This document shows positions 9,673 to 61,804 of a stretch of DNA of 61,804 nucleotides, in pieces. Origin of the DNA: Actinomycetota bacterium. GTDB lineage: Bacteria > Actinomycetota > UBA4738 > HRBIN12. The stretch lies in contig JBDUBL010000004.1 in the NCBI GenBank assembly GCA_040004125.1, forward strand, positions 1 to 61,804, read 5' to 3'. Both the position numbers and the translations under genes were made by a program. Numbering within the stretch: the first letter of the stretch is position 1; each line of letters begins with the position of its first letter. The notes under the pieces were generated by a model. It was not told the DNA's origin. It was given only the letters and a program-made list of their open reading frames with translations, and did no database searches.

Positions 9673-10184
9673 AGGTCGGTGGCATACCGCACGATCGGAC
9701 GGCTCGGGCCGCCGAACGAATACTCCGCCGTCGTCCCGTCGCTCGACCATCCGGCCGCCTCGTAGAACCGACGCGCCCGGGCCCCATCCCGGAGCACCCA
9801 GAGCATCGCTCGGTCGTAGCCGAGCGACCGCAGCCGCGCCACCGCCTCACCGAAGAGCGAGCGCCCGATCCCGAGACCAGCCACTTCCTCCAGGAGATAC
9901 AGCGTCCGCACCTCGCCGGTGTTCGGCTCCCCATCGACGTCGCGCGACAGACCCACGCCGGCGAACCCGACGACACGACCGTCCTGCACGGCGACCAGCA
10001 GGGCGGCGCGATCCTCGGTCTCGTCAAACCACTCGAGCCACATCTGTTCGCGACCTTCGACCGAGAAGCTGTCGATCACATCCTCGGCAAGGATGCCCGC
10101 GTAGGCCCAACGCCAGGACGCAACGTGCACCGCCGCGATTGCGCCGGCGTCTGCCGCCGCCGCGTCGCGGATCCACACCGGCAC
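9669..10184 (-). CDS. GNAT family N-acetyltransferase
   Basis: [24 protein letters not shown] acetyl-CoA motif, [10 protein letters not shown]; GTG 10184 follows GGAGGA. Confidence 0.85.
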
Positions 10185-10186
10185 GA

Positions 10187-11776
10187 CTAATCCTCCACGC
10201 GCTCCCGCGGGTGCAGGAGCCCATACGTGTACCCGTCGACGAGCGCCTCCCACGATGCCTCGATGATGTTCTCGCTCACACCGACGGTGGTCCACTCGTG
10301 CTCGCCGTTGGACAGATCGATCAACACGCGCACGATCGCGCCGGTGCCAACGCTGTGATCGAGCACCCGGACGCGGAAGTCCTCGAGCTCCATGTCGTCC
10401 AGCTGCGGGTAGTCGTTCGTCAGCGCCTTGCGCAACGCGTTGTCCAGGGCGCCGACGGGCCCCTTGCCCTCGGCGCTCTCGATGTGCCGCGTGCCGGCGG
10501 TCACGACCTTCACGGTCGCCTCGGCGAGCGGCTCGTCACCGGTGCGCTCCTCGACATGGACCCGGTAGCTCTCGATCTCGAAAAAGGCCTGCAGCCAGCC
10601 GTCTGCTCGGCGCAACAACAGCTCGAGCGACGCTTCGGCGATATCGAAGGTGTACCCAGCCGCCTCACGTTGCTTGAGCTGCTCGACGGCGACCGGGATC
10701 GCGGCGTCGCCGAGGGCGAGGTCAAACTCCTCGGCCTTCATACGGATCGACGCGCCGCCGCTGTAGTCGGATGCGACGACGCCGCGACGATTGCCGACGG
10801 CGTCGGGCGAGACGTGCTCATAGGCCCGGGAAACGCGGGCCACCCCACTCGTGTGCAGACCGGCCTTGTGCGTGAACGCGTAGCGCCCCGCATAGGGCTG
10901 CCGCGCCTCGGGCGAGAGGTTGGCGATCTCGGCGACGTAGTGCGCGAGCTCGGTCAGATGCTGCACGGACCCTGCCGGGAGCGCGTCGGTCACGCCCATC
11001 TTCAACACGAGGTCGGCGACGATCGGCACGATGTCGGCGTTGCCAGTGCGCTCCCCGTAGCCGTTCACGGTGCCCTGCACCTGCAGTACGCCGGCGTCAA
11101 CGGCCACCAGGGAGTTCGCGACGCCACACCCAGCATCGTTGTGCACATGGATGCCGAGCGGCACCGAGGCCTGGTCGGCAACGGCGCCGACGACCGCCGC
11201 GATCTCGAACGGGAGCATCCCGCCGTTCGTGTCGCACAGGACAAGCCGCTCGGCGCCGGCCTCCTCCGCGGCCGCCAGCACCTGCATCGAGAACGCCGGG
11301 TCACTGCGATAGCCATCGAAGAAGTGCTCGGCATCGAAGAACACACGACGACCCTGTGCTCGCAGGAACGCCACGGAGTCGCGCACCATCGCCACGCCCT
11401 CGGGCAGATCGGCGCGCAACGCCTCGGTCACGTGCAGGTCCCACGCCTTGCCCACGAGGCACACGACCTCGGTCCCGGCGTCGAGCAGGTCACGGAGCGC
11501 CTGCGCATCCTCGGCGCGCTCGCCGACGCGACGCGTCATGCCGAATGCGGTCAGCTGCGCATGCTGCAGCGTTTCCTTCGTGGCGAGCTGGAAGAATTCA
11601 GTGTCGCGCGGGTTCGCGCCGGGCCAGCCACCCTCGATATAGGGGAAGCCGACCTGATCGAGCTTATGCAGGATACGCAGGCGATCTTCCACCGTGTAGG
11701 ACAGGTCCGCCTGCTGCGCGCCGTCGCGCAAGGTGGTGTCGTACAGCTCGACCCGTACGCCGGGCTCGGCGCTCAT
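10187..11776 (-). CDS. cimA: Citramalate synthase
   Basis: [35 protein letters not shown], LeuA-type regulatory C-terminus; ATGA overlap with leuB. Confidence 0.88.
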
Positions 11777-50653: not shown

Positions 50654-51802
50654 CTACCCGAGGAGCGCGCGGCCCATCTGCTTGCGGTACCGCTCGTTGA
50701 AGTCGTACAGGAACCGGTCCTGGCGCGGATAGACACCGGTGGTGAACGCGCGCGACCCGACGCCCGTCTGCGCGCGCTGACAGATCTCCCAATCCTGCTT
50801 GGAGATCATGTCCCACAGCTCCACGACCGGTTCCGGCTTGAACAGCGCCGGGTCTGAGATCGTCTCGGGTCGGAACAGGTACTCGGACACGACGGTCGTG
50901 TGCCCCGGCCCGTTCGGGTAACCGATGTAGTACATGACGCAGTCCGGGTGGAGATTCAACAGTAGGTTCGGGAACTGGTAGGCCCCGAAATACATCGAGT
51001 AGTCCTCGGGCTGGAGGTCGGGGAACTTCGGCAGCTCGGACTCGCCGCTGATCGTGAAGCTGGTGGCGCCGTCCTTCATCCAGTTGCCGTCGTCGCGCGT
51101 TTCCTCGTCCCAGACCTCGCCGAAGCGAAAGAGCGGCACCACCTGCACCAGTTCGGGGTGCACCTGCGGACAGTGCAGACACTCGTTGTAGTTCTCCACA
51201 ACGATCTTCCAGTTCGCGGCGACCTCATAGACGATCCGCACGCCGACGCGGAGCTCGTCGAGCTTGAACCGGTCGAACATCGTCACGCTCTCCGCGCCCC
51301 CGTTGAGGAACTCCATGAACGAGCTCGGCTCGCTCGCCAGGCTCGCAAAGATGAAGCCGCCGTAGGTCTCGACCGCGAACCCGTGCAGCGGGTAATCGCC
51401 CCGGTCGAACAGCTCGCCTTCCTTCACGTTCGGCGAACCGATCAGCCGGCCGTTGAGGTCGTAGGCCCACGCGTGATAGGGGCACACGAACGCCTTCCGC
51501 ACGTTGCCCGCGGCCGGCTCGTCATCGAGGAACTTCGTGCCGCGATGCCTGCACACGTTGTAGAAGCCGTGCAGCTCTCCGTGGTCGTTGCGCACGAGGA
51601 AGACCGACTCCCCGGCAAGGTCCCGCACGATGTAGTCGCCGGGGTTGGGCAACTCCTCGGTGCGCCCGAGGCAGACCCAGTCGCCCCACCAGACTTTCTC
51701 GCGCTCCTCGTCGTAGATCGACGGCTCGGTGTAGTCGGCGCCCGTCAGGGTCGGGCGGGGCTTCCACTCGGTTTCGTCGTAGCGGATGGGTTGGGTCTGC
51801 AT
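50654..51802 (-). CDS. Rieske non-heme iron oxygenase alpha subunit (GbcA/Stc2/choline monooxygenase-like)
   Basis: CRHRG...CPYHAW Rieske ligands; NWKIVVENYNECLHCPQVHP; QDWEIC; GAGGAG RBS. Confidence 0.9.
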   Translation of the reverse strand: MQTQPIRYDETEWKPRPTLTGADYTEPSIYDEEREKVWWGDWVCLGRTEELPNPGDYIVRDLAGESVFLVRNDHGELHGFYNVCRHRGTKFLDDEPAAGNVRKAFVCPYHAWAYDLNGRLIGSPNVKEGELFDRGDYPLHGFAVETYGGFIFASLASEPSSFMEFLNGGAESVTMFDRFKLDELRVGVRIVYEVAANWKIVVENYNECLHCPQVHPELVQVVPLFRFGEVWDEETRDDGNWMKDGATSFTISGESELPKFPDLQPEDYSMYFGAYQFPNLLLNLHPDCVMYYIGYPNGPGHTTVVSEYLFRPETISDPALFKPEPVVELWDMISKQDWEICQRAQTGVGSRAFTTGVYPRQDRFLYDFNERYRKQMGRALLG

Positions 51803-51880
51803 CGTCGGCTCCTCGTCGGTCTCAGCCCAGGATAAGCGGTCGATCGCCACCTCCGGTAGACGGCCGATACGATATCCCGC

Positions 51881-52645
51881 ATGCTCGAGGTCGCCGGATT
51901 CAACATCACGCCGGTGAAGTCCACGGCGTTGCAGCGGCCCGATGTGCTGGACCTCCGTCGGGAAGGAGCCGTGGGTGACCGGCGGTTCCTGTTCATGCGA
52001 GACGATGGTTCACGCCTGTCCGGCATCTCCAAAGCATCCTTGATGCCGATCCAGGCGACCTACGACGCGGTGGGGGAACGCCTGACGCTGAGCTTCGCCG
52101 ACGGCGGGAGGGCGCAAGGCGATGCGCGGCCGACCGGTCCGGCCAAGACCGTCGCGCTCTATGACCGGACGATCTCGGTGCATGCGGTCGACGAGGGGCT
52201 GACGCGAGCGGTCCGCGCGCAGATCGGAGACGACACCGTCACGCTGGCTCGCGCCGACGAGCCGGATTCCGCGGGGGGCATCCATCGCGCCTCGATCCTG
52301 TCGCGCGCATCGATCCGGGACGTTGGACGACGCACCGGCGACGAGGCCCTCGATCCACGGCGGTTCCGGATGCTGATCGAGGTGGAGGGATGCCACCCGT
52401 TTGAGGAGGACACGTGGGAGGGCAAGCGTGTGCGCTTCGGCGATGCCGTCCTGCGGATCGGCGACCGGATGCCCCGCTGCGTCATGACCACCCTGGACCC
52501 CGACACCGGGGTGCAGAACGCGAGGGTCTTGGACGCGCTCGCGCAGCACCGAAAGACGGGCGAGAAGCTGTACCTCGGCATGTACGCGGAGGTCGAGCGG
52601 CCCGGCCTGATCCGGCGTGGCGACCCGGTGGCGGTGCTTGCCTAG
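51881..52645 (+). CDS. MOSC domain (mARC/YcbX-like) molybdoprotein
   Basis: TPVKS, GDRRF, DPRRFR, RCVMTT; ATG 7 nt after TACGAT. Confidence 0.85.
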   Translation: MLEVAGFNITPVKSTALQRPDVLDLRREGAVGDRRFLFMRDDGSRLSGISKASLMPIQATYDAVGERLTLSFADGGRAQGDARPTGPAKTVALYDRTISVHAVDEGLTRAVRAQIGDDTVTLARADEPDSAGGIHRASILSRASIRDVGRRTGDEALDPRRFRMLIEVEGCHPFEEDTWEGKRVRFGDAVLRIGDRMPRCVMTTLDPDTGVQNARVLDALAQHRKTGEKLYLGMYAEVERPGLIRRGDPVAVLA

Positions 52646-53067
52646 CCGGTCGTGAACGCGCGGAGCTCGGCGGCGTGCTCCTCGTAGTGTTCGAAGGTCT
52701 CGCCGGTGAACTCCTCGACCGCCGCATCGGTGAGCGTCGGCAAGGCTCGAAGCCCGGTACGCGCGCGCTCCCGGTTGTGCTCGGACCGCACGATGATCTC
52801 GTCCCAACTCATGCCGCGGCCATCTTCGATCACCTTGTCGTTGACGTCGTCCCAGTCCTGGTCTTCGAGCGTCTCACCGCGTGCGATCCGCTCGAGGGCG
52901 TCGCCCACGTAGCCCGCCCAGTAGCCGCAGTGCCAGACGAGATCCTGCGTCGACCAACCGGGGACGACCCCTTCCCGGTCACGCTGATCGTCGGGCACCG
53001 CCGCGAACGCATCCACGAACGCCAGCCACGCCTGATCCTCTCGCTGCAACAGTTCCTCGGTGTTCAT
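52642..53067 (-). CDS. DinB / maleylpyruvate-isomerase-like four-helix bundle protein
   Basis: GWSTQDLVWHC and EHYEEH motifs; GAGGGGG RBS. Confidence 0.75.
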   Translation of the reverse strand: MNTEELLQREDQAWLAFVDAFAAVPDDQRDREGVVPGWSTQDLVWHCGYWAGYVGDALERIARGETLEDQDWDDVNDKVIEDGRGMSWDEIIVRSEHNRERARTGLRALPTLTDAAVEEFTGETFEHYEEHAAELRAFTTG

Positions 53068-53246: not shown

Positions 53247-54587
53247 CTAGTCCGCGATCGCGCCGATGCAGTCCTCGAAAGCCTCCAGCGTGCGGTCGAC
53301 GTCCTCGTCGGTGTGTTGCGCGGACATCGAGAACTCCTCGAACCAGGCCGAGCCCATCGGGATCACGCCGCGGTTCAGCATGCCGAACCAGTAGTCGTCC
53401 CAGCGCGCCGTGTCGTTCTTGCACGCCTCGCGGAAGGTGTTCGGCTGCTCGTCGAGTCCGAAGAACAACCCACCAAGCGTGTTCACTTGCGTGACGTGCG
53501 CGGTGACACCCTTGTCCTTGAACACCTCGCGCATCCCGTCGGCGAGCCGCGTCGTGAGCCGCGTCATCTCCTTGTAGGTGTCGTCGGTCATCACCTTTGT
53601 CAGACACGCGAGCCCCGCGGCCATCGCCAGAGGGTTCGCGTTGTACGTGCCGAAGTGGACCATCGACCCGAGCGGCGTGACGTGTTCCATCAGCTCGCGA
53701 CGCCCGCCGAACGCGCCGACCGGCACGCCGCCACCGATCGCCTTTGCCAGCGTGACGAGGTCGCCCTTGACTCCCCAGTACTCGGTCGCCCCGCCCGGAG
53801 CGATCCGGCAGCCGAGCTTGACCTCGTCCATGATCAGCACCGAGCCCTTGGCGGTGCACAGCGCACGCACCGCCTCGAGGTAGCCGGGCAACGGTGGGAT
53901 CACACCGCCGTTGGTCATCGCCGGTTCGATGATCACCCCGGCGACATCGCCGTCGTGCTCGTCGAAGGCGCGCTGCATCATGTCGATGTCGTTGAACGAC
54001 ACCACCGTCGTGTACTCCGTCGAGGCGGGCAGCAGCCCGGCCGAATCGGCGGTGGCGTTCGGGTGGGTGTCGGGGCCGGCCGCATCGGCCGGGGCGCCGC
54101 CGATCGAGACCAAGAGGTGGTCGGTCCCCCCGTGATACTGGCCCTCGATCTTCACGATCGTCTTGCGCCCGGTCGCGGCGCGCGCCAGCCGGATCGCGGT
54201 CTGGGTCGCCTCCACGCCCGACTGCGTGAAGCGGATCATGTCGATCGAGCCCGGGTAGCGACGGATCACTTCTTCGGCCAGCATGGCGGCGAGCTCGGTC
54301 GGCATGCCGTAGAGCGTGCCGTGCGCGGCCTGCTTCTGGATCGCCTCGACGATGATCGGGTTCGCGTGTCCGGCGACCATCGCCGCGTAGCACAGCGAGT
54401 AGTCGATGTACTCGTTGCCGTCGAGGTCCCAGACGCGCGAACCCTTCGAGTCGCCCACGTACAACGGGTAGGGCGGCTTGAACTGGATCGCGCTGCCGAC
54501 GCCACCGGGGATCACCTTGGCGGCCCGCTCCCAGGCGACCTTCCCCTTCGGGGTCCTGCGCTCGTACTCCGCAACGCCGTCGGTCAT
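53247..54587 (-). CDS. Class III PLP aminotransferase, HemL-like paralog
   Basis: WDLDGNEYIDY, FTQSGVEA, MDEVK, LAKAIGGGVPVGAFGG, GTYNANPL. Confidence 0.85.
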   Translation of the reverse strand: MTDGVAEYERRTPKGKVAWERAAKVIPGGVGSAIQFKPPYPLYVGDSKGSRVWDLDGNEYIDYSLCYAAMVAGHANPIIVEAIQKQAAHGTLYGMPTELAAMLAEEVIRRYPGSIDMIRFTQSGVEATQTAIRLARAATGRKTIVKIEGQYHGGTDHLLVSIGGAPADAAGPDTHPNATADSAGLLPASTEYTTVVSFNDIDMMQRAFDEHDGDVAGVIIEPAMTNGGVIPPLPGYLEAVRALCTAKGSVLIMDEVKLGCRIAPGGATEYWGVKGDLVTLAKAIGGGVPVGAFGGRRELMEHVTPLGSMVHFGTYNANPLAMAAGLACLTKVMTDDTYKEMTRLTTRLADGMREVFKDKGVTAHVTQVNTLGGLFFGLDEQPNTFREACKNDTARWDDYWFGMLNRGVIPMGSAWFEEFSMSAQHTDEDVDRTLEAFEDCIGAIAD

Positions 54588-54641
54588 GGTCGCTTCCCTC
54601 CGTCGGGTGGTGGAGGCGTTCCGGGGCCTCCGGATCTGCCG

Positions 54642-54694
54642 AGTCTAGGTGTCGTTTCTCACTGGGAACAAGCAGCTCTCGTATCGTGAGAACC
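54642..54694 (-). promoter_or_regulatory. Promoter with TCTCAC/GTGAGA operator array (copy B)
   Basis: GGTTCTCACGATACGAGAGCTGC-TTGTTC-N18-TAGACT; gapless 32/53 match to 59565-59617. Confidence 0.75.
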
Positions 54695-54696
54695 GT

Positions 54697-55872
54697 TCAC
54701 CAGCGCACCGAGAGCGTCGCAGGGCCTCGATACTCCCAGCCGCGAAACACCGGTGCGTGGTCGGGGTCGAGACGCAACCGCGGGAAACGCTCGAGCAGCA
54801 GCGACAGGCCGGTCCGCATCTGTATCCGAGCGAGTTGATGGCCCACGCAAAAATGCGGCCCGAACCCGAACGCGGCGTTCGCGTGCTTCGGTCGTTCGAT
54901 GTCGAAGACGTCGGCGGCGTCGCCCCACACGGTCTCGTCGCGATTCGCCGACGGGATCATCAACCCGACGCCTTCACCAGGCGGGATCGTTATGCCCGCA
55001 ACGGTCGCCTCGCGACCCGCGACCCGCCCCTGCGTCCCGATCGGCGAGACCCAGCGCAAGCCCTCGTCGACCGCCCGGCGGACCAGCGTCTGTGGGTCCG
55101 CCCGCACGGCCGCGAGCTGGTCGGGATGCTCGAGCAAGCCGACAACCGTCGAGCCAAGCCCGTGCGCCGGCTCCTGCAAGCCGCCGATCAACGCCACCTT
55201 GAGCGTCGGGAGGAAGCCGCGCATTCGCGTATCGAGGTCGCCGTCCTCTGCATGCAGCATCTCGGAGAGCATCGAGTCGTCGGGCTCCGCGAGCAGCCGC
55301 GCCAGACGCGGGCGGAGCACCGCGTCGACCTCGGCGGCCGTCGCGTCCGCGATGGATTGTTTCTCGGGATCGTTCTCGTAGTTCGACGTACCTCCCGCGA
55401 TATCGTGGAACCACCTGCGCAGCGTCGGTGCGTCGAGATGCTCGGGCAGGCCGATCACGCGGGCGAGCGACAGCACGGCCAGCGGTTCGCAATACGCGTC
55501 CATCAGATCGGCCGTGCCCTCGGCGGCAAGTCCGTCCAGCAGCTCGGTCGCGATGGCGGCGACGACATCGGGCGCCGTCTGCTCGATCCGGCGTGGGCGG
55601 AGCGTGCGTTCCATCGGCTCGCGCCAGTGTTCCTGTTCGTTGCCGTCGACCGTGAGCACGGTCGCGCCGCCGCAGGTGCGGTCTAGCGGCGAGCCAGCGA
55701 ACCCCGCTGGGAAACGCGCCGGATCCTCGGCCGCCTCGACCAGATCCTGCCACCGGGTGACGAACCAGAGGCCGACCGAAGGGACCCACGCGATGGGCGC
55801 CTCGCGCCGAAGACGTGCATAGACGGGGTAGGGGTCGCGCTCGAGCTCTTCGACGGTCACGCTCTCGGTCAC
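54697..55872 (-). CDS. Cytochrome P450, GcoA/CYP255-like
   Basis: EGLRW (ExxR), FGFGPHFCVG heme Cys, I-helix GGLQEPAH, N-terminal VTVEELERDPY, C-terminal RGWEYRGP. Confidence 0.9.
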   Translation of the reverse strand: MTESVTVEELERDPYPVYARLRREAPIAWVPSVGLWFVTRWQDLVEAAEDPARFPAGFAGSPLDRTCGGATVLTVDGNEQEHWREPMERTLRPRRIEQTAPDVVAAIATELLDGLAAEGTADLMDAYCEPLAVLSLARVIGLPEHLDAPTLRRWFHDIAGGTSNYENDPEKQSIADATAAEVDAVLRPRLARLLAEPDDSMLSEMLHAEDGDLDTRMRGFLPTLKVALIGGLQEPAHGLGSTVVGLLEHPDQLAAVRADPQTLVRRAVDEGLRWVSPIGTQGRVAGREATVAGITIPPGEGVGLMIPSANRDETVWGDAADVFDIERPKHANAAFGFGPHFCVGHQLARIQMRTGLSLLLERFPRLRLDPDHAPVFRGWEYRGPATLSVRW

Positions 55873-58184
55873 GCCGATGCGCGACTCCCACGGGCGACGG
55901 CGTCGAGCACGCGTTCCGGTGTGATCGGAAGGGTCGTGGGTCGCGCGCCGACCGCATCGGCGATCGCCGCCGGGATCACCGCGATCGGCGGCCCGATCGG
56001 CGGCTCGCCGATCCCGCGGGCGCCGAACGGTCCGAGGCCCTCCCCCGACTCCAGGATCACGGTCTCGATGTCGGGCACGTCGGTCGCCGTGGGGATCATG
56101 TACTGGAACAACCCCGGCGTGAGGTTCACCCCCTCCTGCACGACGACGTCCTCCAGCAGCGCCTGCCCGAGACCCTGGACGACGGCGCCCGAGATCTGAC
56201 CCTCGACGCTCATCGGGTTGATCGCCCGCCCGACGTCGTGGGCCGCGATGTAGCGGAGGATCCGGACCTCGCCGGTATCCAGATCGACCTCCACATCGGC
56301 GAGGTGCGTGCCAAACGTGAAGTCCGGGAAGATGCGGTCGCCGTCGAGGTCGCGCGTAACCTCGGTTCCCTTGGGACCGAAGAAGGTGCCGAGTGCTTCG
56401 ATCGGCACGTTGCGGCGGCGGCAGGCCTGCAGCGCCGTGAGCAGCGGGGTCGCACCGTCGGGCCCGACGATCTCGCTCGGTTCGATGCGCAGCGAGTCGA
56501 TCGGCTGGCCGGTGTCGGCCGCCACGGCGCCGAGCACCTGGTCGCGCAACAGCACGGCGGCCTCGTACGTCGCGTTGCCCGACATCAGCAGCTGGCGTGT
56601 CGCGGTGGTGGTGCCCGCCAGCGGCGTCAACGCGGAGTCGCCGAAGTGCACGCTGATCCGGTCCATGTCGACGGCGAGGATCTCGCTCGCGATCTGCCCC
56701 AGCGACGAGGCCTGTCCTCCGCCGATGTCGGGCACGCCGCAGCGCACCGTCAACGACCCGTCCATCTCAAAGCCGATCCAGGCCGCCGAGCTGTCGTTCA
56801 GCCAGACGAGCCTCCCGTAGGACTGCATGTTCGAGGCGATTGCACGACCGACCGCTTTGCGGGGGCCACTGGGGACTGGTTTGTCGCCGGCGCGCTCCCG
56901 CACGGCGTCGATCGTCTGGGCGAGTTGCACCTCGGTGATGATCTCCTGGCCGACCGGCAGACGGTCGCCACGCGCCAGGGCGTTGCGCTTGCGGATCTCG
57001 CCGGGGTCGATCCCGAGCCTGCGCGACACCTCGTCGATCTGCGACTCGTAGCCCAGCACCATCTGCATCCCGCCGAAGCCGCGGAACGCCGAGGTTGGCG
57101 GGTTGTTCGTGTAGGCGGTCTTGGCGCGGATCCGCACGTTGGGCACGCGGTAGGGGCCGCACGCGTGCACGGTCGAGTACAGCAGCACCAACGCGGAAAG
57201 GTAGGCATAGGCGCCGGCGTCGGACACGATCTCGATGTCGTGTGCGAGCAGCGTCCCCTCGGCGTCGGCGGCGGTGCGATAGCGCATCACGTTGCGGTGG
57301 CGCTTGGCGCGGGCCAGGAGCGACTCGTTGCGGGTCCACAGCATCCGCACGGGCTTCCGGGTGCGGTGCACGGCGATCGCCAGATACGGCTCGACCGTCA
57401 TGTCCTCTTTGCCGCCGAAGCCGCCGCCCACATAGGGCGCGATCACCCGTACCTTGGCATCGGGCACACCCAGGATCTTCGCGACGTCGCGGTAATGCTC
57501 GACCACCTGGGTGGCCACCCGCAGGTTCAACACGCCGTCGTCGTCGAGCCACCCGACGCCGGCCTCGGGCTCGAGGTAGGCGTGATCGACGAACTGCGTG
57601 CGATAGGTCTCCTCGACGACCACGGCGGCGCCGGCGAACGCCTCGTCGACGTCGCCGCGGTCGATGTGCCACTCAGCCAGCAGGTTGCCGCCCTCGTGCA
57701 CCGACGGTGCGTCATCGGCGAGCGCAGCCTCAGGATCGCTCACGACCGGCATGTCTTCGTACTCGACCTCAACCAGCTCGCAGGCGATCGCGAGCGCGTC
57801 CTCGGTCTCGGCGATCACCAGCGCGATCGGCTCGCCATGGAACCGCACCCGGTCGGTGGCGAGCACCTGCATGCTCGCCTGCAACGCGCCGACTGCGATC
57901 GTCTGGCCGGGCACGTCGACGCGGATCTCGTTGTTCGGCACGTCCTCGCCGAGCAGCACGGAGATCACCCCTGGGACCGCGACCGCCGCGGTGACGTCGC
58001 GCCGGGTCAGCCGGGCGCTCGGCACCTGGGAGCGAACGAGCCGCGCGTGCAACATGCCCGCGAACGCCAGATCGCCGGCGTAGCGCGTCGTGCCGGCGAT
58101 CTTCTCGGCCTGATCGTGGCGCGCGAGCGGCTGGTGGACGACCCGAAGCTCTTCGATCTTGGAGGTGTGGATCTCACCGGTCAT
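55869..58184 (-). CDS. Xanthine dehydrogenase family molybdopterin-binding subunit
   Basis: GGGFGGK, AFRGFG, GQISG, GIGEPP; ATGA overlaps at both ends. Confidence 0.92.
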   Translation of the reverse strand: MTGEIHTSKIEELRVVHQPLARHDQAEKIAGTTRYAGDLAFAGMLHARLVRSQVPSARLTRRDVTAAVAVPGVISVLLGEDVPNNEIRVDVPGQTIAVGALQASMQVLATDRVRFHGEPIALVIAETEDALAIACELVEVEYEDMPVVSDPEAALADDAPSVHEGGNLLAEWHIDRGDVDEAFAGAAVVVEETYRTQFVDHAYLEPEAGVGWLDDDGVLNLRVATQVVEHYRDVAKILGVPDAKVRVIAPYVGGGFGGKEDMTVEPYLAIAVHRTRKPVRMLWTRNESLLARAKRHRNVMRYRTAADAEGTLLAHDIEIVSDAGAYAYLSALVLLYSTVHACGPYRVPNVRIRAKTAYTNNPPTSAFRGFGGMQMVLGYESQIDEVSRRLGIDPGEIRKRNALARGDRLPVGQEIITEVQLAQTIDAVRERAGDKPVPSGPRKAVGRAIASNMQSYGRLVWLNDSSAAWIGFEMDGSLTVRCGVPDIGGGQASSLGQIASEILAVDMDRISVHFGDSALTPLAGTTTATRQLLMSGNATYEAAVLLRDQVLGAVAADTGQPIDSLRIEPSEIVGPDGATPLLTALQACRRRNVPIEALGTFFGPKGTEVTRDLDGDRIFPDFTFGTHLADVEVDLDTGEVRILRYIAAHDVGRAINPMSVEGQISGAVVQGLGQALLEDVVVQEGVNLTPGLFQYMIPTATDVPDIETVILESGEGLGPFGARGIGEPPIGPPIAVIPAAIADAVGARPTTLPITPERVLDAVARGSRASA

Positions 58185-58669
58185 CGCGCGATCCCCTGCG
58201 CCTGCGCGTCTTCGATCGCATCCACGATGTCCGTGTATCCGGTGCAGCGGCACAGATTGCCGTGCAGTTGCTCTCGGATGTCGGCGCGGGACAGCGGCTC
58301 GGTCGCGTCGCGCAGCATCGCGTGCGCGCAGAGCAACATGCCGGGGGTGCAGAAGCCGCACTGTGCGGCGTGATGCTCGTGGAAGCGACGTTGCAGCGGG
58401 CCGAGGGAGCCGTCGGGCTCGCAGAGCCCGGCGGCGGTCGTGATCGCGGCGCCGTCGACCTGGGCCGCGAGCACGATACAGGCGCTCGCGGGCTCGCCGT
58501 CGACCAGAACCGTGCAGGCGCCGCAGACACCTTCGCCGCAGCCGTACTTCGGGTCGGTGACGTCGGCGAGATCGCGCAGCCAGCGCAGCAAGGACACGTG
58601 CCCGCCGGTCGTGCGGGTCGTGGGGGCACCGTTCACGGTGAGCGTGACCGTCACGTCGGTAGCGGTCAT
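58181..58669 (-). CDS. Xanthine dehydrogenase family 2Fe-2S subunit (CoxS-like)
   Basis: GCGEGVCGAC, QCGFCTPG, LCRCTG. Confidence 0.92.
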   Translation of the reverse strand: MTATDVTVTLTVNGAPTTRTTGGHVSLLRWLRDLADVTDPKYGCGEGVCGACTVLVDGEPASACIVLAAQVDGAAITTAAGLCEPDGSLGPLQRRFHEHHAAQCGFCTPGMLLCAHAMLRDATEPLSRADIREQLHGNLCRCTGYTDIVDAIEDAQAQGIAR

Positions 58670-59526
58670 GCGGCGACCCCGCGTGTGACGGCGTCGGTCA
58701 GCGCCCGCACTGCGAGCACCCGGGCGAGGTGCCGACGGTGCTCGGCGGTCGCGCTCACATCCGAAACCGGATCGATGCCCTCGATCGGCCCGATCCGATC
58801 CGCCAGCGTCGTCGCGTCGGCTCCCTCCACCGCGATCTCCACGGCGCCCAGCCGCTTCGGGCGTTCGGCGACGCCGGCGAGACCGAGCCGCGACTCGACG
58901 ACGCGCCCGTCTGCGACGCGGACCAGCGCGGCCGCCGCGCAGAGCGCGAAGTCGCCCCGGCGCCGCGAGACCTCGGCGAATCCCCAGCCCCACCCCGGGC
59001 CGAGCACCGGCACCTGCACCCGTTCGAGCAGCTCATTTTCGGCCAGCGACGTCGTGAAGTAGCTCTCGTGGAAATCGGTCGCCGCGACGGTTCGTGTCGT
59101 GGTGCCGTCGGTCAGGTCGTAGGTTGCGCCGGCGACGACCATCGCAAGCGGCAGCTCGGCCGCCGGATCCGAATGCGCCAACGAACCGCCCAGGGTCCCG
59201 CGCACACGGATCCGCGACGAGCCGACCCATCGAGCGGCCGCGGCCACCAGTGGCTGGCCGGCCGCGACGATCGGGTCGCGCTCGAGCTCGGCGTGCGTCC
59301 TCAACGCGCCGATCGAAAGGTATCCGTCGCGCTGCGCGATCTCGCTCGCCCCAGCGATATGCGTGACGTCGATCAGCGCCTCGAGGTCCAGCACGCCCAG
59401 GTTCATCATCGGCAGGAGGCTCTGCCCGCCGGCGAGGACCTTGGCGCTGCCGGCACCCTGGCGCAGCATCGCGGCCGCGTCGCCGAACGACGCGGCTCTC
59501 TCGTATCGGAACGGCTTCACGAACAC
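58666..59526 (-). CDS. Xanthine dehydrogenase family FAD subunit (CoxM-like)
   Basis: LAGGQSL, IRVRGTLGGSLAHSDPAAELP, RRRGDFA. Confidence 0.92.
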   Translation of the reverse strand: MFVKPFRYERAASFGDAAAMLRQGAGSAKVLAGGQSLLPMMNLGVLDLEALIDVTHIAGASEIAQRDGYLSIGALRTHAELERDPIVAAGQPLVAAAARWVGSSRIRVRGTLGGSLAHSDPAAELPLAMVVAGATYDLTDGTTTRTVAATDFHESYFTTSLAENELLERVQVPVLGPGWGWGFAEVSRRRGDFALCAAAALVRVADGRVVESRLGLAGVAERPKRLGAVEIAVEGADATTLADRIGPIEGIDPVSDVSATAEHRRHLARVLAVRALTDAVTRGVAA

Positions 59527-59564
59527 GCTCGTCCCCCATGTTCCTCGGCCGGCCGCGCGAGCGG

Positions 59565-59617
59565 ATGATAGAGATGCTTTCTCACCAGGCTCAACCGCAT
59601 CTCACGACGTGAGAAGC
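59565..59617 (-). promoter_or_regulatory. Promoter with TCTCAC/GTGAGA operator array (copy A)
   Basis: GCTTCTCACGTCGTGAGATGCGG-TTGAGC-N18-TATCAT; perfect TCTCAC-GTC-GTGAGA palindrome. Confidence 0.75.
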
Positions 59618-59620
59618 GGT

Positions 59621-60727
59621 CTACACGGCGAGTGGAGTCGCCTGCATACCGGTCGCGGCCGCGACGCCTTCGTTCGTGAGGGCGCCGTCCCACGTGTTCA
59701 CGCCCAGCGCCAGCGCCGGGTCCTCGTGCACGGCCTGCTGGATGCCGGCGCCCGCGATCGCCAACACATACGGCAGCGTCACGTTCGTCAGCGCGTACGT
59801 CGAGGTGCGCGGCACCGCGCCGGGCATGTTGCCGACGCAGTAGTGCACGACGCCATCCACCACATAAACCGGATCCGCGTGTGTTGTGACGTGCGACGTC
59901 TCGAAGCAGCCGCCCTGGTCGATCGAGATGTCGACGAGCACCGCGCCGGGCTGCATCGCACGCACCTGTTCGGCGCTGACGAGGTGCGGAGCTTTCGCGC
60001 CGGGCACCAGCACCGCGCCAACCACCAGATCGGCACGCAGCACCAGGTCCTCGATCGCCAACCGAGACGACATGACGGTCTGGATCCGCCCGCGCCAGAT
60101 CCGGTCGATCTCGCGCAAACGGTCGACGTTCTTATCCACGACGACCACCTCGGCCTGCATCCCCGCCGCGATCTCGGCGGCGTTCCAGCCCGCCATGCCA
60201 CCGCCGAGGACAACCACCGTCGCGGGTGCCACGCCACTGGCACCGCCCATCAGCACGCCTCGGCCGCCTTGCGGTCGCTCCAGGTATTTGGCGCCTTCCT
60301 GCGGAGCCATCCGGCCCGCGATCTCCGACATCGGCGCGAGCAGCGGGAGTCTGCCGTCGGGCAGCTGCACCGTCTCGTAGGCCACGGCGCGCACGCGACG
60401 CTCCGTGAGGAACCGCGTCAACCGTTCGTCGGCGGCCAGGTGCAGATAGGTGAACAGCACGTGGTCGGAGCGGAACCGCTCGTACTCCTCGGGCTGCGGT
60501 TCCTTGACCTTCACGATCAGATCAGCCGCCGCGAACACCGCATCGGCGTCGGCCCCGATCGATGCGCCGGCGGTCACGTAGCGATCGTCGGGTATCGCCG
60601 AGCCGAGGCCGGCGCCGGCCTGCACGATGACCGCGTGCCCAGCGTGCGTCAGTTCGCGAACGCCTTCGGGGGTGGCCGCCACCCGGTACTCGTGGTTCTT
60701 CACCTCGGTCGGGATCCCGATCCGCAT
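59621..60727 (-). CDS. ald: Alanine dehydrogenase
   Basis: IGIPTEVKNHEYRV, KVKEP, LFTYLHLA, PMSEIAGR, GAVLVPGA, DQGGCFETS, NMPGAVP. Confidence 0.95.
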   Translation of the reverse strand: MRIGIPTEVKNHEYRVAATPEGVRELTHAGHAVIVQAGAGLGSAIPDDRYVTAGASIGADADAVFAAADLIVKVKEPQPEEYERFRSDHVLFTYLHLAADERLTRFLTERRVRAVAYETVQLPDGRLPLLAPMSEIAGRMAPQEGAKYLERPQGGRGVLMGGASGVAPATVVVLGGGMAGWNAAEIAAGMQAEVVVVDKNVDRLREIDRIWRGRIQTVMSSRLAIEDLVLRADLVVGAVLVPGAKAPHLVSAEQVRAMQPGAVLVDISIDQGGCFETSHVTTHADPVYVVDGVVHYCVGNMPGAVPRTSTYALTNVTLPYVLAIAGAGIQQAVHEDPALALGVNTWDGALTNEGVAAATGMQATPLAV

Positions 60728-60730
60728 CGG

Positions 60731-61804
60731 CTACCTCATCTCGTCGAGCGCGGCCCCGAGGCCGGCGGCCAGTTCGTCCACCTCGTCGTCGGTCAACGTC
60801 AACGGCGGCGAGATCTGGATCGCGCCGGTCGCCAGCGTGCGCGTCATGATGCCGTTGGCGCGGCACGCCGGCACGACCCTGCCGACCAGACCTGCGTCGG
60901 CGGCGAGCCGCTCGGGGTCGAGTTGCACCGCCGCCAGCACCCCCGTGCCTGCGCGAACCTCGCTGACCAGGTCGTGATCGGCGAGGGGGCGAAGCCCCTC
61001 GGCGAGGTGCGCCTCCAGCTCGACGGCGCGAGCGAGGATGTCGTCGTTCACCATGATGTCGAGGTTCGCAAGCGCCGCCGCGGCGACCGCGGCGTGCCCC
61101 GAGTACGTGTAGCCGTGGCGGAACATGCCCGCTCCTTCGGCGAAGAACGGCCGCCACACGCTCGGAGCCACGAGCACGGCGCCCAGCGGCAGGTACCCGC
61201 TCGTGATGCCCTTGGCGCAGGTGACGAGGTCGGGATCGAGGTCCCACCGGGTGCTCGCGAACCAGTCGCCGGTCCGCCCGAACCCAGTGATCACCTCGTC
61301 GGCCACGAACAGCACGCCGGTCTCGCGACACACCGCGCGCGCCTGTTCCAGATAACCGGGCGGTGGGGCGTAGACCCCGCCTGCACCGATCACCGGCTCA
61401 CAGAAGAACGCCGCGACGCGCTCGGCGCCCAGTCGCTCGATCGTCGCACGCAACGCGTCTGCGTCGTCCCAGGGCACCTCCTCGACGTCGGGCAGCAGCT
61501 GCCCGTAGCCGACGGCGTTCGGGGCGATGCCGGCCAGGGACGTGCCGGCGATATGCATGCCGTGGTAGGCGCGCTCGCGACGCAGCAAGACCGTCCGATC
61601 CGGCTGACCGACGAGGTCCCAGTAGCGGCGCACCATCTTGGTCGCGGTGTCGATCGAGTCGGACCCACCGCTGGTCAGGAATACCTTCGCGTCGGCCATC
61701 GGCGCGATCCCGGCGACCCGGTCGGCCAGTGCCGACACCGCCGGGTTGGTCAGATCCTGGAAGGTGGAATACGACTCCAGCGCGCGCATCTGGTCGGCGA
61801 CCGC
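60731..61804 (-). CDS. Class III (omega-amino acid/polyamine-type) aminotransferase, 5' end beyond the window
   Basis: SGGSDSID, AYHG, EPVIGAGG, DEVITGFGRTG, AKGITSGY, HGYTYSGH; frame stays open to the window edge. Confidence 0.9.
   Translation of the reverse strand, partial: AVADQMRALESYSTFQDLTNPAVSALADRVAGIAPMADAKVFLTSGGSDSIDTATKMVRRYWDLVGQPDRTVLLRRERAYHGMHIAGTSLAGIAPNAVGYGQLLPDVEEVPWDDADALRATIERLGAERVAAFFCEPVIGAGGVYAPPPGYLEQARAVCRETGVLFVADEVITGFGRTGDWFASTRWDLDPDLVTCAKGITSGYLPLGAVLVAPSVWRPFFAEGAGMFRHGYTYSGHAAVAAAALANLDIMVNDDILARAVELEAHLAEGLRPLADHDLVSEVRAGTGVLAAVQLDPERLAADAGLVGRVVPACRANGIMTRTLATGAIQISPPLTLTDDEVDELAAGLGAALDEMR

What the first reader, a model, noticed from the sequence alone, without database searches (positions are those of the whole stretch)
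54697..59526. GcoA/CYP255-like P450 translationally coupled to a xanthine-dehydrogenase-family trimer, with no reductase
From memory the P450 shares GcoA hallmarks (QEP in place of the acid-alcohol pair, YCEP, GWxxRGP); GcoA is an aryl O-demethylase that normally has a GcoB reductase beside it. Here it is instead the fourth gene of a coxM-S-L-like operon, all joined by ATGA overlaps. Inference: either the Mo enzyme oxidises the aldehyde or heterocycle made by the P450, or its FAD/2Fe-2S chain supplies the P450's electrons, which would be an undescribed redox partnership.
Basis: partly seen in the sequence, partly recalled or inferred. Interest (0 to 1): 0.7.

Follow-up and report, generated by a model that had tools for sequence, protein, structure and literature searches.

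The report
Accessory P450 in molybdenum-hydroxylase amine operon
A GcoA-like cytochrome P450 really is the last, overlapping gene of a three-subunit molybdenum hydroxylase operon in an uncultured soil actinobacterium, but it looks like an optional add-on to a conserved amine/N-heterocycle breakdown cluster, and its electrons most likely come from a Rieske ferredoxin and reductase encoded elsewhere, not from the molybdenum enzyme.

Summary
On the minus strand, XdhM (58666-59526), XdhS (58181-58669), XdhL (55869-58184) and a 391-aa P450 (54697-55872) overlap by 4 nt each: ATGA, ATGA, then GTGA rather than ATGA.

The P450 has the GcoA/SyoA hallmarks (GGLQEP, YCEP, GWEYRGP). It is only 41% identical to SyoA and 38% to GcoA, and its pocket is polar and acidic, not GcoA's Phe triad.

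In 19 soil Actinomycetota MAGs, orthologues at 61% identity or more form one clade, next to XdhMSL wherever the flanks were readable (18 of 19). Gene order varies, and two well-assembled relatives keep the whole module (DUF6282, omega-aminotransferase, AlaDH, XdhMSL, GSA-like aminotransferase, aldehyde dehydrogenase) with no P450. So the trimer does not exist to serve the P450.

In the sister clades the P450 directly abuts a small Rieske-type ferredoxin (22/22 loci of one clade). This genome carries a Rieske-ferredoxin/reductase pair on another contig. CYP255 enzymes can also run on H2O2.

Best reading: metabolic coupling within one orphan amine or N-heterocycle pathway, with a separate redox partner. 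A Mo-trimer-to-P450 electron route is not excluded but is unlikely (about 8%).

The parts
58666..59526 (-). XdhM/CoxM-like FAD-binding medium subunit (286 aa, GTG start)
   Evidence: PF00941 at 8e-43 plus PF03450. AGGQSL and TLGG motifs are present. The stop overlaps the XdhS start as ATGA.
58181..58669 (-). XdhS small subunit with two [2Fe-2S] clusters (162 aa)
   Evidence: PF01799 plus PF00111. Both Cys motifs are present: C44-x4-C-x2-C...C64 and C104-x2-C...C140-x-C142. It overlaps XdhL as ATGA.
55869..58184 (-). XdhL molybdopterin-binding catalytic subunit (771 aa)
   Evidence: PF01315, PF02738 and PF20256. GGGFGGKE at 253, FRGFG at 367, and GIGEP at 724 (the catalytic Glu) are present, and there is no CODH loop. 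Best solved relatives are 4-HBCR alpha, nicotinate dehydrogenase, Kdh and quinoline oxidoreductase (Qor).
54697..55872 (-). CYP255-like cytochrome P450 (391 aa, GTG start overlapping the XdhL stop as GTGA)
   Evidence: PF00067. SyoA scores 6e-81 at 41% identity. The Q233-E234 I-helix pair and Cys342 are present.
59527..59620 (-). Promoter/operator region upstream of XdhM, with the inverted repeat TTCTCAC...GTGAGAA
   Evidence: Gapless similarity to the region upstream of AT_down.
54588..54696 (-). Intergenic region between the P450 and AT_down, carrying the same TTCTCAC...GTGAGAA architecture
   Evidence: This implies a second, co-regulated transcription unit.
53247..54587 (-). AT_down: glutamate-1-semialdehyde-aminomutase-like class III aminotransferase (446 aa)
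   Evidence: PF00202 and NF000818 at 438 bits. PDB GSA aminomutases score 1e-94. It is linked to XdhMSL in every orthologous locus.
59621..60727 (-). Alanine dehydrogenase (368 aa)
   Evidence: TIGR00518 scores 516 bits, above its cut-off. It lies directly upstream of XdhM in the closer relatives (8 of the 18 orthologous loci, and G019/G033); the more divergent loci lack it there.
60731..61804 (-). AT_up: omega (amine:pyruvate-type) class III aminotransferase, with its 5' end cut by the contig end
   Evidence: PF00202 and the PRK07480/AptA-like models. In relatives it is preceded by a DUF6282 hydrolase.
52642..53067 (-). Small DinB/MDMPI_N-like protein (141 aa)
   Evidence: PF11716 and PF12867.
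51881..52645 (+). MOSC-domain protein (254 aa)
   Evidence: PF03473 plus PF03476. It recurs in related loci.
50654..51850 (-). GbcA-like Rieske oxygenase alpha subunit (398 aa), which also lacks its own reductase in the window
   Evidence: PF00355 plus PF00848, and NF058607 at 187 bits, below its cut-off.

Best explanation
The four genes are one transcription unit inside a conserved, uncharacterised catabolic module of uncultured soil Actinomycetota. The core of that module is a DUF6282 hydrolase, an omega-aminotransferase, alanine dehydrogenase, XdhMSL, a GSA-like aminotransferase and an aldehyde dehydrogenase, often with a PotD-like ABC importer. It most likely degrades an amine or N-heterocycle.

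Proposed core pathway (inferred):
1. A primary amine is transaminated to an aldehyde or cyclic imine. Alanine dehydrogenase recycles the pyruvate.
2. The Mo hydroxylase oxidises the carbon next to nitrogen, or the aldehyde.
3. The hydrolase opens the resulting amide or lactam.
4. The second aminotransferase and the aldehyde dehydrogenase finish the route.

The P450 is an accessory front-end enzyme that some lineages added. By alpha-hydroxylation next to N or O (dealkylation, or ring C-N oxidation), it would convert a related polar, cationic substrate into an intermediate the core module can use. In the window's subclade it was placed directly behind XdhL, so the two are made together.

Its electrons most likely come from the genome's stand-alone Rieske-type ferredoxin plus ferredoxin reductase pair (contig C69, 10013-11541, minus strand), not from the Mo enzyme.

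What is shown: the gene anatomy, the synteny, the phylogeny, the P450-less modules, the Rieske-ferredoxin pairing in relatives, and the presence of the pair in this genome.
What is inferred: the substrate class, the order of reactions, and the redox partner.
For: Anatomy and catalytic integrity
- The anatomy and domains are confirmed.
- XdhL keeps all catalytic motifs and is the best-conserved gene of the unit, at 93-95% identity against 82-84% for the P450. It is therefore a working hydroxylase.

Synteny and phylogeny
- P450 orthologues at 61% identity or more occur in 19 MAGs and form one clade (100/98). They lie near XdhMSL and AT_down in 18 of 19 loci. The exception is L058, which shows no Xdh in 10 kb upstream and has only about 0.6 kb of downstream flank.
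- Relatives at 53% identity or less never have an Xdh orthologue beside them; L061 carries only a distant Xdh paralogue (XdhL 30%, XdhS 44%) about 9 kb away.
- Gene order differs between subclades: MSL-P450-AT; MSL-(ABC, aldehyde dehydrogenase or a second P450)-AT-P450; or divergent.
- G019 and G033, each assembled in 8 contigs, have AT_up-AlaDH-XdhMSL-AT_down-Aldedh, also preceded by DUF6282, and no CYP255-like P450 anywhere in the genome.
- DUF6282 precedes the module (directly before AT_up or, in L047, before XdhM) in 13 loci.
- The roughly 50%-identical Mesorhizobium and Pelagibacterium P450s sit beside an aldehyde dehydrogenase, a class III aminotransferase and a transporter. This again points to an amine-to-aldehyde-to-acid logic.

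Pocket
- It is polar and acidic (C67, T162, Thr and Gln at the GcoA A295/T296 positions, E380, Y381), unlike GcoA's Phe triad.

Redox partner
- A Rieske ferredoxin abuts the P450 in 22 of 22 sister-clade loci, with the ferredoxin upstream. It lies directly downstream in L061, L076, L112, L059 and L060.
- A Rieske-ferredoxin/reductase pair is present in this genome and in G024, G021, G036, G017 and G038.
- There is a published precedent: the Streptomyces P450 DoxA is served by a Rieske-type ferredoxin (PMC12979805).

Regulation
- A shared operator-like repeat lies upstream of XdhM and AT_down.
Against: - No member of this P450 clade, this Mo enzyme clade or DUF6282 has been characterised, so the substrate and the order of reactions are guesses.
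- The Rieske ferredoxin and reductase on C69 sit among housekeeping genes. They may primarily serve the genome's Rieske oxygenases, and nothing shows that they reduce this P450.
- The subclades that are most tightly integrated with XdhMSL (types A and B) are the ones that lack a P450-adjacent ferredoxin. That pattern is also what a switch of electron source would look like.
- G027, a type B genome that is 88% complete, showed no ferredoxin-reductase hit.
- The MAG is only 80% complete.
Confidence: 0.58

Rival explanations
1. The P450 works as a native peroxygenase. It uses H2O2 through the peroxide shunt and needs no reductase. The H2O2 could come from the FAD site of the Mo flavoprotein acting as an oxidase, or from the FAD amine oxidases encoded upstream in the window.
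For: - The closest solved relative, SyoA, is more active with H2O2 than with its adjacent reductase. The I-helix Gln-Glu pair is essential for this activity in both SyoA and GcoA (PMC11842817).
- The window P450 keeps GGLQEPAH. Q233 and E234 are invariant across the clade.
- No GcoB/PDR-type reductase was found in 6 of the 8 P450-bearing genomes examined.
Against: - GcoA and AgcA carry the same QE pair yet work physiologically with reductases.
- Most relatives keep a ferredoxin gene fused start-to-stop to the P450. That would be pointless for an obligate peroxygenase.
- Whether bacterial CoxM-type FAD subunits react usefully with O2 is not known for this enzyme.
Confidence: 0.15
2. The XdhMSL trimer is the P450's redox partner. 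Electrons taken from the Mo-site substrate, or from NADH at the FAD, pass through the two [2Fe-2S] clusters and FAD to the heme. This would be a closed redox loop and a new P450 class.
For: - The genes are translationally coupled in a monophyletic subclade of 7 MAGs.
- Every P450 orthologue at 61% identity or more with readable flanks (18 of 19 loci) lies in an Xdh cluster.
- Types A and B have lost the P450-adjacent Rieske ferredoxin that type C and the outgroups keep.
- There is no GcoB-type reductase in the genome.
Against: - The module works without the P450 in G019 and G033.
- The gene order is not conserved, and in type C the P450 is on the opposite strand with its own ferredoxin.
- XdhL is fully catalytic and evolves more slowly than the P450.
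- From established structures of this family, the Fe-S clusters of XDH enzymes are buried, and the only exit is the FAD.
- No precedent was found in the literature searched.
- A Rieske-ferredoxin/reductase pair is available in all four type A genomes checked.
Confidence: 0.08
3. The unit degrades methoxylated aromatic amines of the vanillylamine or methoxytyramine type. The omega-aminotransferase with AlaDH makes the aromatic aldehyde, the Mo enzyme acts as an aromatic aldehyde oxidase, and the P450 performs GcoA-like aryl O-demethylation.
For: - All characterised CYP255 members are aryl O-demethylases.
- An amine:pyruvate aminotransferase with AlaDH followed by an aldehyde-oxidising enzyme matches this order of reactions.
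- IclR-type regulators sit beside the Mesorhizobium relatives.
Against: - GcoA's aryl-binding Phe triad is replaced by C/T/Y, and the pocket gains Thr, Gln and Glu.
- No ring-cleavage or catechol pathway genes lie in the cluster.
- A PotD-like importer, a GSA-like aminotransferase and the DUF6282 hydrolase do not fit this route.
Confidence: 0.12

Closest known systems
CYP255 aryl O-demethylases: GcoA (Amycolatopsis sp., PDB 5ncb), AgcA, and SyoA (A. thermoflava, PDB 8u09)
   Same: - Best sequence matches among solved structures (6e-81 to 4e-69, full length).
- The I-helix Gln-Glu-Pro replaces the acid-alcohol pair.
- It shares the YCEP and GWxxRGP motifs and has the normal heme loop.
   Different: - Only 38-41% identical.
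- Sits in a separate clade from the characterised enzymes.
- Lacks their 7-residue F/G insertion.
- The pocket residues F75/F169/A295/T296/G394/F395 are C/T/T/Q/E/Y here.
- No adjacent GcoB/AgcB/SyoB-type reductase, and none in the genome.
- Embedded in amine-catabolic genes rather than aromatic ones.
Three-subunit XDH-family Mo hydroxylases for N-heterocycles: nicotinate dehydrogenase (3hrd), ketone dehydrogenase Kdh (7dqx), quinoline 2-oxidoreductase (1t3q) and PucCDE/XdhABC. 4-hydroxybenzoyl-CoA reductase (1rm6) is the top solved hit.
   Same: - Same L/S/M architecture, cofactor motifs and catalytic Glu.
- Same operon logic: a hydroxylase followed by an amidohydrolase-type ring opener, as in nicotinate and purine pathways.
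   Different: - Every NCBIfam equivalog scores far below its cut-off. The best is pucD at 510 bits against 784.
- XdhM is 286 aa against about 320 aa for the 4-HBCR beta model, and matches that model only weakly (71 bits against a 405-bit cut-off), so it is probably not a 4-HBCR-type reductase; the 4-HBCR [4Fe-4S] insertion itself was not examined.
- Partnered with two aminotransferases, AlaDH, DUF6282 and sometimes a P450.
Class I P450 systems served by a Rieske-type ferredoxin (DoxA with SpFdx4 and SpFdR3 in Streptomyces peucetius, PMC12979805)
   Same: - An actinobacterial P450 is reduced by a Cys2His2 [2Fe-2S] ferredoxin and a separate reductase encoded away from the P450.
- The relatives of the window P450 carry such a ferredoxin gene next to the P450.
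   Different: - In the window itself the ferredoxin is not adjacent. It lies on contig C69, and its use by this P450 is only inferred.
- DoxA belongs to an unrelated P450 family.
P450-initiated secondary-amine catabolism in mycobacteria (CYP151 PipA/MorA for pyrrolidine, piperidine and morpholine). This comparison is from my own knowledge, not from a tool.
   Same: The proposed logic matches: P450 alpha-hydroxylation next to N gives an amino-aldehyde or cyclic imine, which is then oxidised and transaminated.
   Different: - A different P450 family.
- Those operons carry their own ferredoxin and reductase.
- They use NAD-dependent aldehyde dehydrogenases, not a Mo hydroxylase.

Membership tests
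CYP255 (GcoA/AgcA/SyoA) | More than 40% amino-acid identity to a named family member (the P450 nomenclature rule) | tested here: inconclusive
   41.0% to SyoA, 38.2% to 9ia1 and 38.1% to a GcoA variant by BLASTP. This sits on the boundary.
CYP255 (GcoA/AgcA/SyoA) | I-helix amide-acid pair (Gln-Glu) in place of the acid-alcohol pair | tested here: met
   GGLQEPAH at 230-237. Q233 and E234 are invariant in alignment A1. The role of the pair is described in PMC11842817.
CYP255 (GcoA/AgcA/SyoA) | Hydrophobic aryl-binding pocket (GcoA Phe75/Phe169/Phe395) | tested here: not met
   The aligned residues are C67, T162 and Y381. In addition G394 becomes E380, and A295/T296 become T/Q.
CYP255 (GcoA/AgcA/SyoA) | Adjacent multidomain NADH reductase (GcoB/AgcB three-domain type, or SyoB PDR-type) | tested here: not met
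   None is present in the operon or its flanks. PF00175 gives no hit in G000 or in 5 of 7 related P450-bearing genomes.
CYP255 (GcoA/AgcA/SyoA) | Groups with characterised members in a phylogeny | tested here: not met
   SyoA, 9ia1 and GcoA form their own 100/100 clade, separated by long branches from the 19-member Xdh-associated clade.
XDH/aldehyde-oxidase family Mo hydroxylase, heterotrimeric L-S-M type | L subunit with a/b hammerhead plus two MoCo-binding domains and the catalytic Glu | tested here: met
   PF01315, PF02738 and PF20256. GGGFGGKE, FRGFG and GIGEP are present.
XDH/aldehyde-oxidase family Mo hydroxylase, heterotrimeric L-S-M type | S subunit with two [2Fe-2S] clusters, and M subunit with FAD_binding_5 plus the CO_deh_flav_C domain | tested here: met
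Aerobic CO dehydrogenase (CoxLMS sensu stricto) | Active-site loop AYxCSFR, and a score above the CODH model cut-offs | tested here: not met
   The loop is absent. TIGR02416 scores 226 bits against 991, and NF040766 scores 301 against 950.
Class I P450 system with a Rieske-type ferredoxin | A Cys2His2 [2Fe-2S] ferredoxin gene adjacent to the P450, plus a glutathione-reductase-type ferredoxin reductase | tested here: inconclusive
   The ferredoxin is adjacent in 22 of 22 sister-clade loci and in 5 further loci. In the window's genome the pair lies on another contig (C69). Electron transfer itself cannot be tested here.
P450 reduced directly by a Mo-flavoprotein (hypothetical new class) | Physical interaction and electron transfer from XdhMSL to the heme | not testable with these tools
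   Only monomer structure prediction was available. The genomic evidence argues against an obligate partnership.

The most novel reading that the evidence does not exclude
In the subclades that lost the P450-adjacent Rieske ferredoxin and moved the P450 into the XdhMSL operon, the Mo flavoprotein drives the P450. This could be direct, through FAD or [2Fe-2S] to the heme, or indirect, through H2O2 made at its FAD and used by the Gln-Glu peroxygenase machinery. Oxidation of one pathway intermediate would then pay for oxygenation of another without NAD(P)H. That would be a closed redox loop and a new kind of P450 system.
Probability: 0.1. Interest if true: 0.85.

Novelty: new member of a known kind. 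Interest (0 to 1): 0.4.

Why it matters
The cluster is an uncharacterised catabolic module shared by many uncultured soil Actinomycetota, which are common in Danish and other soil metagenomes. It combines a Mo hydroxylase, an unknown DUF6282 hydrolase and two aminotransferases, so it probably encodes an undescribed route for an abundant soil amine or N-heterocycle.

The P450 belongs to a large, untouched sister radiation of the biotechnologically important CYP255 O-demethylases. This radiation has a polar, acidic pocket and usually a dedicated Rieske-type ferredoxin. That broadens what CYP255-like enzymes may do, for example N-dealkylation or amine oxidation, and adds examples of a rarely reported P450 redox-partner type.

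For the specific claim of a Mo-enzyme-to-P450 redox partnership, the result is mainly a caution. Translational coupling here reflects shared pathway membership in one subclade, not an obligate partnership.

Tried and rejected
1. GcoB-type partner elsewhere in the genome. A PF00175 scan of G000 and seven relatives found none in 6 of 8 genomes, so this was rejected.
2. Dedicated small 3Fe-4S or 4Fe-4S P450 ferredoxin. A motif scan of all ORFs of the MAG found only a housekeeping 7Fe FdxA-like protein on C11 and respiratory-type proteins.
3. The P450-less modules in G033, G003 and L054 as cases of recent P450 decay. tblastn found no P450 remnant in the gaps.
4. The Mo enzyme as a simple substitute for the NAD-dependent aldehyde dehydrogenase seen beside the Mesorhizobium P450s. 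This was rejected because the core module carries both.
5. A CO-dehydrogenase identity for the 'coxMSL-like' trimer. Rejected.
6. Literature searches for a P450 paired with an XDH-family enzyme, and for 6G71 and CYP1232, gave nothing useful.
7. The large protein-database searches (search for homologous proteins, the search of protein representatives) and structure prediction were not run. Synteny across GTDB representatives already answered the question, and no multimer prediction is offered.

Full report
**1. Observation**

The window is contig C64 of a 2.14-Mb MAG that is 80% complete and about 69% G+C. It comes from soil.

On the minus strand lie four genes:
- XdhM, 58666-59526
- XdhS, 58181-58669
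- XdhL, 55869-58184
- a P450, 54697-55872

The junctions are ATGA, ATGA and GTGA.

Pfam and NCBIfam give the full XDH-family set of domains:
- FAD_binding_5 plus CO_deh_flav_C
- Fer2 plus Fer2_2
- Ald_Xan_dh_C plus MoCoBD_1 and MoCoBD_2

XdhL carries GGGFGGKE, FRGFG and the catalytic Glu in GIGEP. It lacks the CODH loop. Its best solved relatives are 4-hydroxybenzoyl-CoA reductase, nicotinate dehydrogenase, Kdh, aldehyde oxidoreductase, XDH and quinoline oxidoreductase, at about 1e-94 to 1e-71. No NCBIfam equivalog reaches its cut-off.

The same operon occurs in six other MAGs. A contig from an independent soil metagenome crosses the XdhL/P450 junction.

**2. The P450**

The best solved matches are SyoA (8u09), 9ia1 and GcoA. 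The gap to all other P450s is large. The recalled hallmarks are real: GGLQEP, YCEP and GWEYRGP.

However, the assignment to GcoA's function does not hold up:
- Identity is 41.0% to SyoA, 38.2% to 9ia1 and 38.1% to GcoA.
- The characterised enzymes form a separate clade.
- The residues that surround GcoA's aryl substrate, Phe75, Phe169 and Phe395 (PMC6021390), are Cys, Thr and Tyr here.
- A295 and T296 are Thr and Gln, and G394 is a Glu that is invariant in the whole radiation.

The pocket is therefore polar and acidic. This argues against guaiacol-type substrates and for a polar, probably protonated-amine substrate. That last step is an inference.

**3. Is the pairing conserved?**

I scanned 60 relatives and the GTDB representative genomes. 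P450 orthologues at 61% identity or more occur in 19 soil Actinomycetota MAGs and form one clade with 100/98 support. XdhMSL and the GSA-like aminotransferase AT_down lie beside them in 18 of the 19 loci. The exception is L058, which shows no Xdh in 10 kb upstream and has only about 0.6 kb of downstream flank.

Three gene arrangements exist:
- **Type A:** XdhMSL-P450-AT_down. This is the window's type, a nested subclade of 7 with 100/97 support.
- **Type B:** XdhMSL, then a variable insert (ABC transporter, aldehyde dehydrogenase, or a second P450 on the other strand), then AT_down, then the P450.
- **Type C:** the P450 lies divergent from the operon.

Relatives at 53% identity or less (Mesorhizobium, Pelagibacterium, Chloroflexota, Acidimicrobiia, Thermoleophilia) have no orthologous Xdh beside them; L061 carries only a distant Xdh paralogue about 9 kb away.

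The converse test is informative. XdhL orthologues at 79-95% identity also occur in G019 and G033, each assembled in 8 contigs. There the operon reads AT_up-AlaDH-XdhMSL-AT_down-Aldedh (also preceded by DUF6282), with no CYP255-like P450 anywhere in the genome and no remnant in the gaps.

A DUF6282 hydrolase precedes the module (AT_up or, in L047, XdhM) in 13 loci. The window's contig simply ends inside AT_up.

The core module is therefore DUF6282, omega-aminotransferase, AlaDH, XdhMSL, GSA-like aminotransferase and aldehyde dehydrogenase, with a PotD-like ABC importer in some loci. The P450 is an accessory gene placed at variable positions.

**4. Where do the P450's electrons come from?**

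No GcoB/PDR-type reductase exists in this MAG, nor in 5 of 7 other P450-bearing relatives.

Clustering the neighbours of all 80 related loci showed a protein of about 100 aa immediately upstream of the P450 in 22 of 22 loci of the Acidimicrobiia/Chloroflexota sister clade. The gap to the first aligned P450 codon is 6-27 nt. This protein is the only neighbour conserved there. It is a Rieske-type [2Fe-2S] ferredoxin (PF00355).

The same kind of gene lies directly downstream of the P450 in several other loci:
- Thermoleophilia (L061, L076)
- a Trueperaceae MAG (L112)
- the type C members of the Xdh-associated clade (L059, L060)

One type B locus (L055) has a Rieske ferredoxin plus ferredoxin reductase 3 kb downstream.

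The window's genome has such a pair on contig C69. The reductase is at 10013-11230 and the ferredoxin at 11233-11541, both on the minus strand. They are 60-63% and 61% identical to the L055 pair. The pair is conserved in G024, G021, G036, G017 and G038.

A Rieske-type ferredoxin has recently been shown to serve the actinobacterial P450 DoxA (PMC12979805).

Separately, SyoA works better with H2O2 than with its own reductase. The Gln-Glu pair, which is conserved here, is required for that activity (PMC11842817).

So there are two ordinary explanations for 'no reductase beside it'.

**5. Mechanism proposed**

I favour metabolic coupling (confidence about 0.58). The module degrades an imported amine or N-heterocycle in these steps:
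1. Transamination, with pyruvate recycled by AlaDH.
2. Mo-dependent hydroxylation of the carbon next to N, or of the aldehyde or cyclic imine.
3. Hydrolytic opening by DUF6282.
4. A second transamination.
5. Aldehyde oxidation.

The P450 would extend the substrate range by alpha-hydroxylation or dealkylation of a related compound. In type A genomes it is co-translated with XdhL.

A shared inverted repeat, TTCTCAC...GTGAGAA, lies upstream of XdhM and AT_down. This suggests a single regulator.

One attractive but untested specific version involves cyclic or N-alkylated amines, with three steps:
- The P450 converts cyclic or N-alkylated amines into the cyclic imine or amino-aldehyde.
- The Mo enzyme oxidises that product to a lactam or acid.
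- DUF6282 then opens the lactam.

**6. The redox-partnership idea**

It is not excluded. Types A and B lack the adjacent ferredoxin that type C and the outgroups keep, and I could not run a multimer prediction or any assay.

Several points weigh against it:
- The module is autonomous without the P450.
- The gene order is variable.
- XdhL is fully catalytic and slow-evolving.
- A Rieske-ferredoxin/reductase pair is available in every type A genome examined.
- There is no known precedent.

I give it about 8% as direct transfer, and about 10% if H2O2-mediated driving by the flavoprotein is included.

**7. Novelty and score**

These are new members of known kinds: an orphan clade of XDH-family hydroxylases and an orphan CYP255-like P450 clade, in a conserved but uncharacterised soil actinobacterial cluster.

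I confirmed its conservation here but treat that note only as a lead.

Interest is moderate at 0.4. The headline claim is probably wrong, but the module, the polar-pocket CYP255-like radiation and its Rieske-ferredoxin pairing are worth experimental follow-up.

Noticed in passing
L063, L070, L071, L073, L078-L082, L084, L090-L092, L095, L096, L099, L108, L113, L116, L117, L119, L121 (just upstream of the P450 at about 10001 in most loci): A two-gene unit made of a Rieske-type [2Fe-2S] ferredoxin (about 100 aa) followed by a CYP255-like P450. It is conserved in 22 of 22 loci across Acidimicrobiia, Chloroflexota and Acidobacteriota, with otherwise variable neighbours. This appears to be a largely undescribed P450/ferredoxin pairing.
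   Followed up: partly
window 59527-59620 and 54588-54696: Both intergenic regions share the layout TTCTCACG - about 10 nt - TTG... - GTGAGAAA - a -10-like box. The outer heptamers are reverse complements of each other, so this is a likely common operator for the XdhMSL-P450 unit and AT_down.
   Followed up: partly
G000 contig C18, 5193-7771 (minus strand) and its flanks: The only other P450 of the MAG (28% identical) lies next to a glutamine-synthetase-like gene, a PLP decarboxylase, a LigB-type extradiol dioxygenase, an aldehyde dehydrogenase and a MarR regulator. This resembles gamma-glutamyl-primed amine catabolic clusters.
   Followed up: no
L057 / L029 (G011:C3, 611345-614705): In this relative XdhL is split into three frames and the P450 match stops at residue 307. 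This is either decay of the module or long-read indel errors in the MAG.
   Followed up: no
L123 (G033:C1, 112251-114557): The XdhL orthologue of the P450-less genome G033 carries one in-frame TGA. A 1.3-kb stretch between XdhL and AT_down has no recognisable ORF.
   Followed up: partly
L048, L051, L053 (between XdhL and AT_down, opposite strand): Some type B loci carry a second P450 that is 35-37% identical, inserted antiparallel between XdhL and AT_down. Four loci of the same subclade (L048, L051-L053) also carry an inosine-uridine nucleoside hydrolase downstream.
   Followed up: no
window 50654-51850 and G000 contig C69, 10013-11541: The GbcA-like Rieske oxygenase in the window has no reductase or ferredoxin of its own. 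The stand-alone Rieske-ferredoxin/reductase pair on C69, next to serA and the gatCAB genes, may be a shared electron hub for several oxygenases in this small genome.
   Followed up: partly
L062-L120 (Mesorhizobium loci): About 35 Mesorhizobium genomes carry a conserved cluster made of an IclR regulator, an amino-acid permease, a CYP255-like P450 (about 52% identical), an aldehyde dehydrogenase and class III aminotransferases. It has no adjacent redox partner and its function is unknown.
   Followed up: partly
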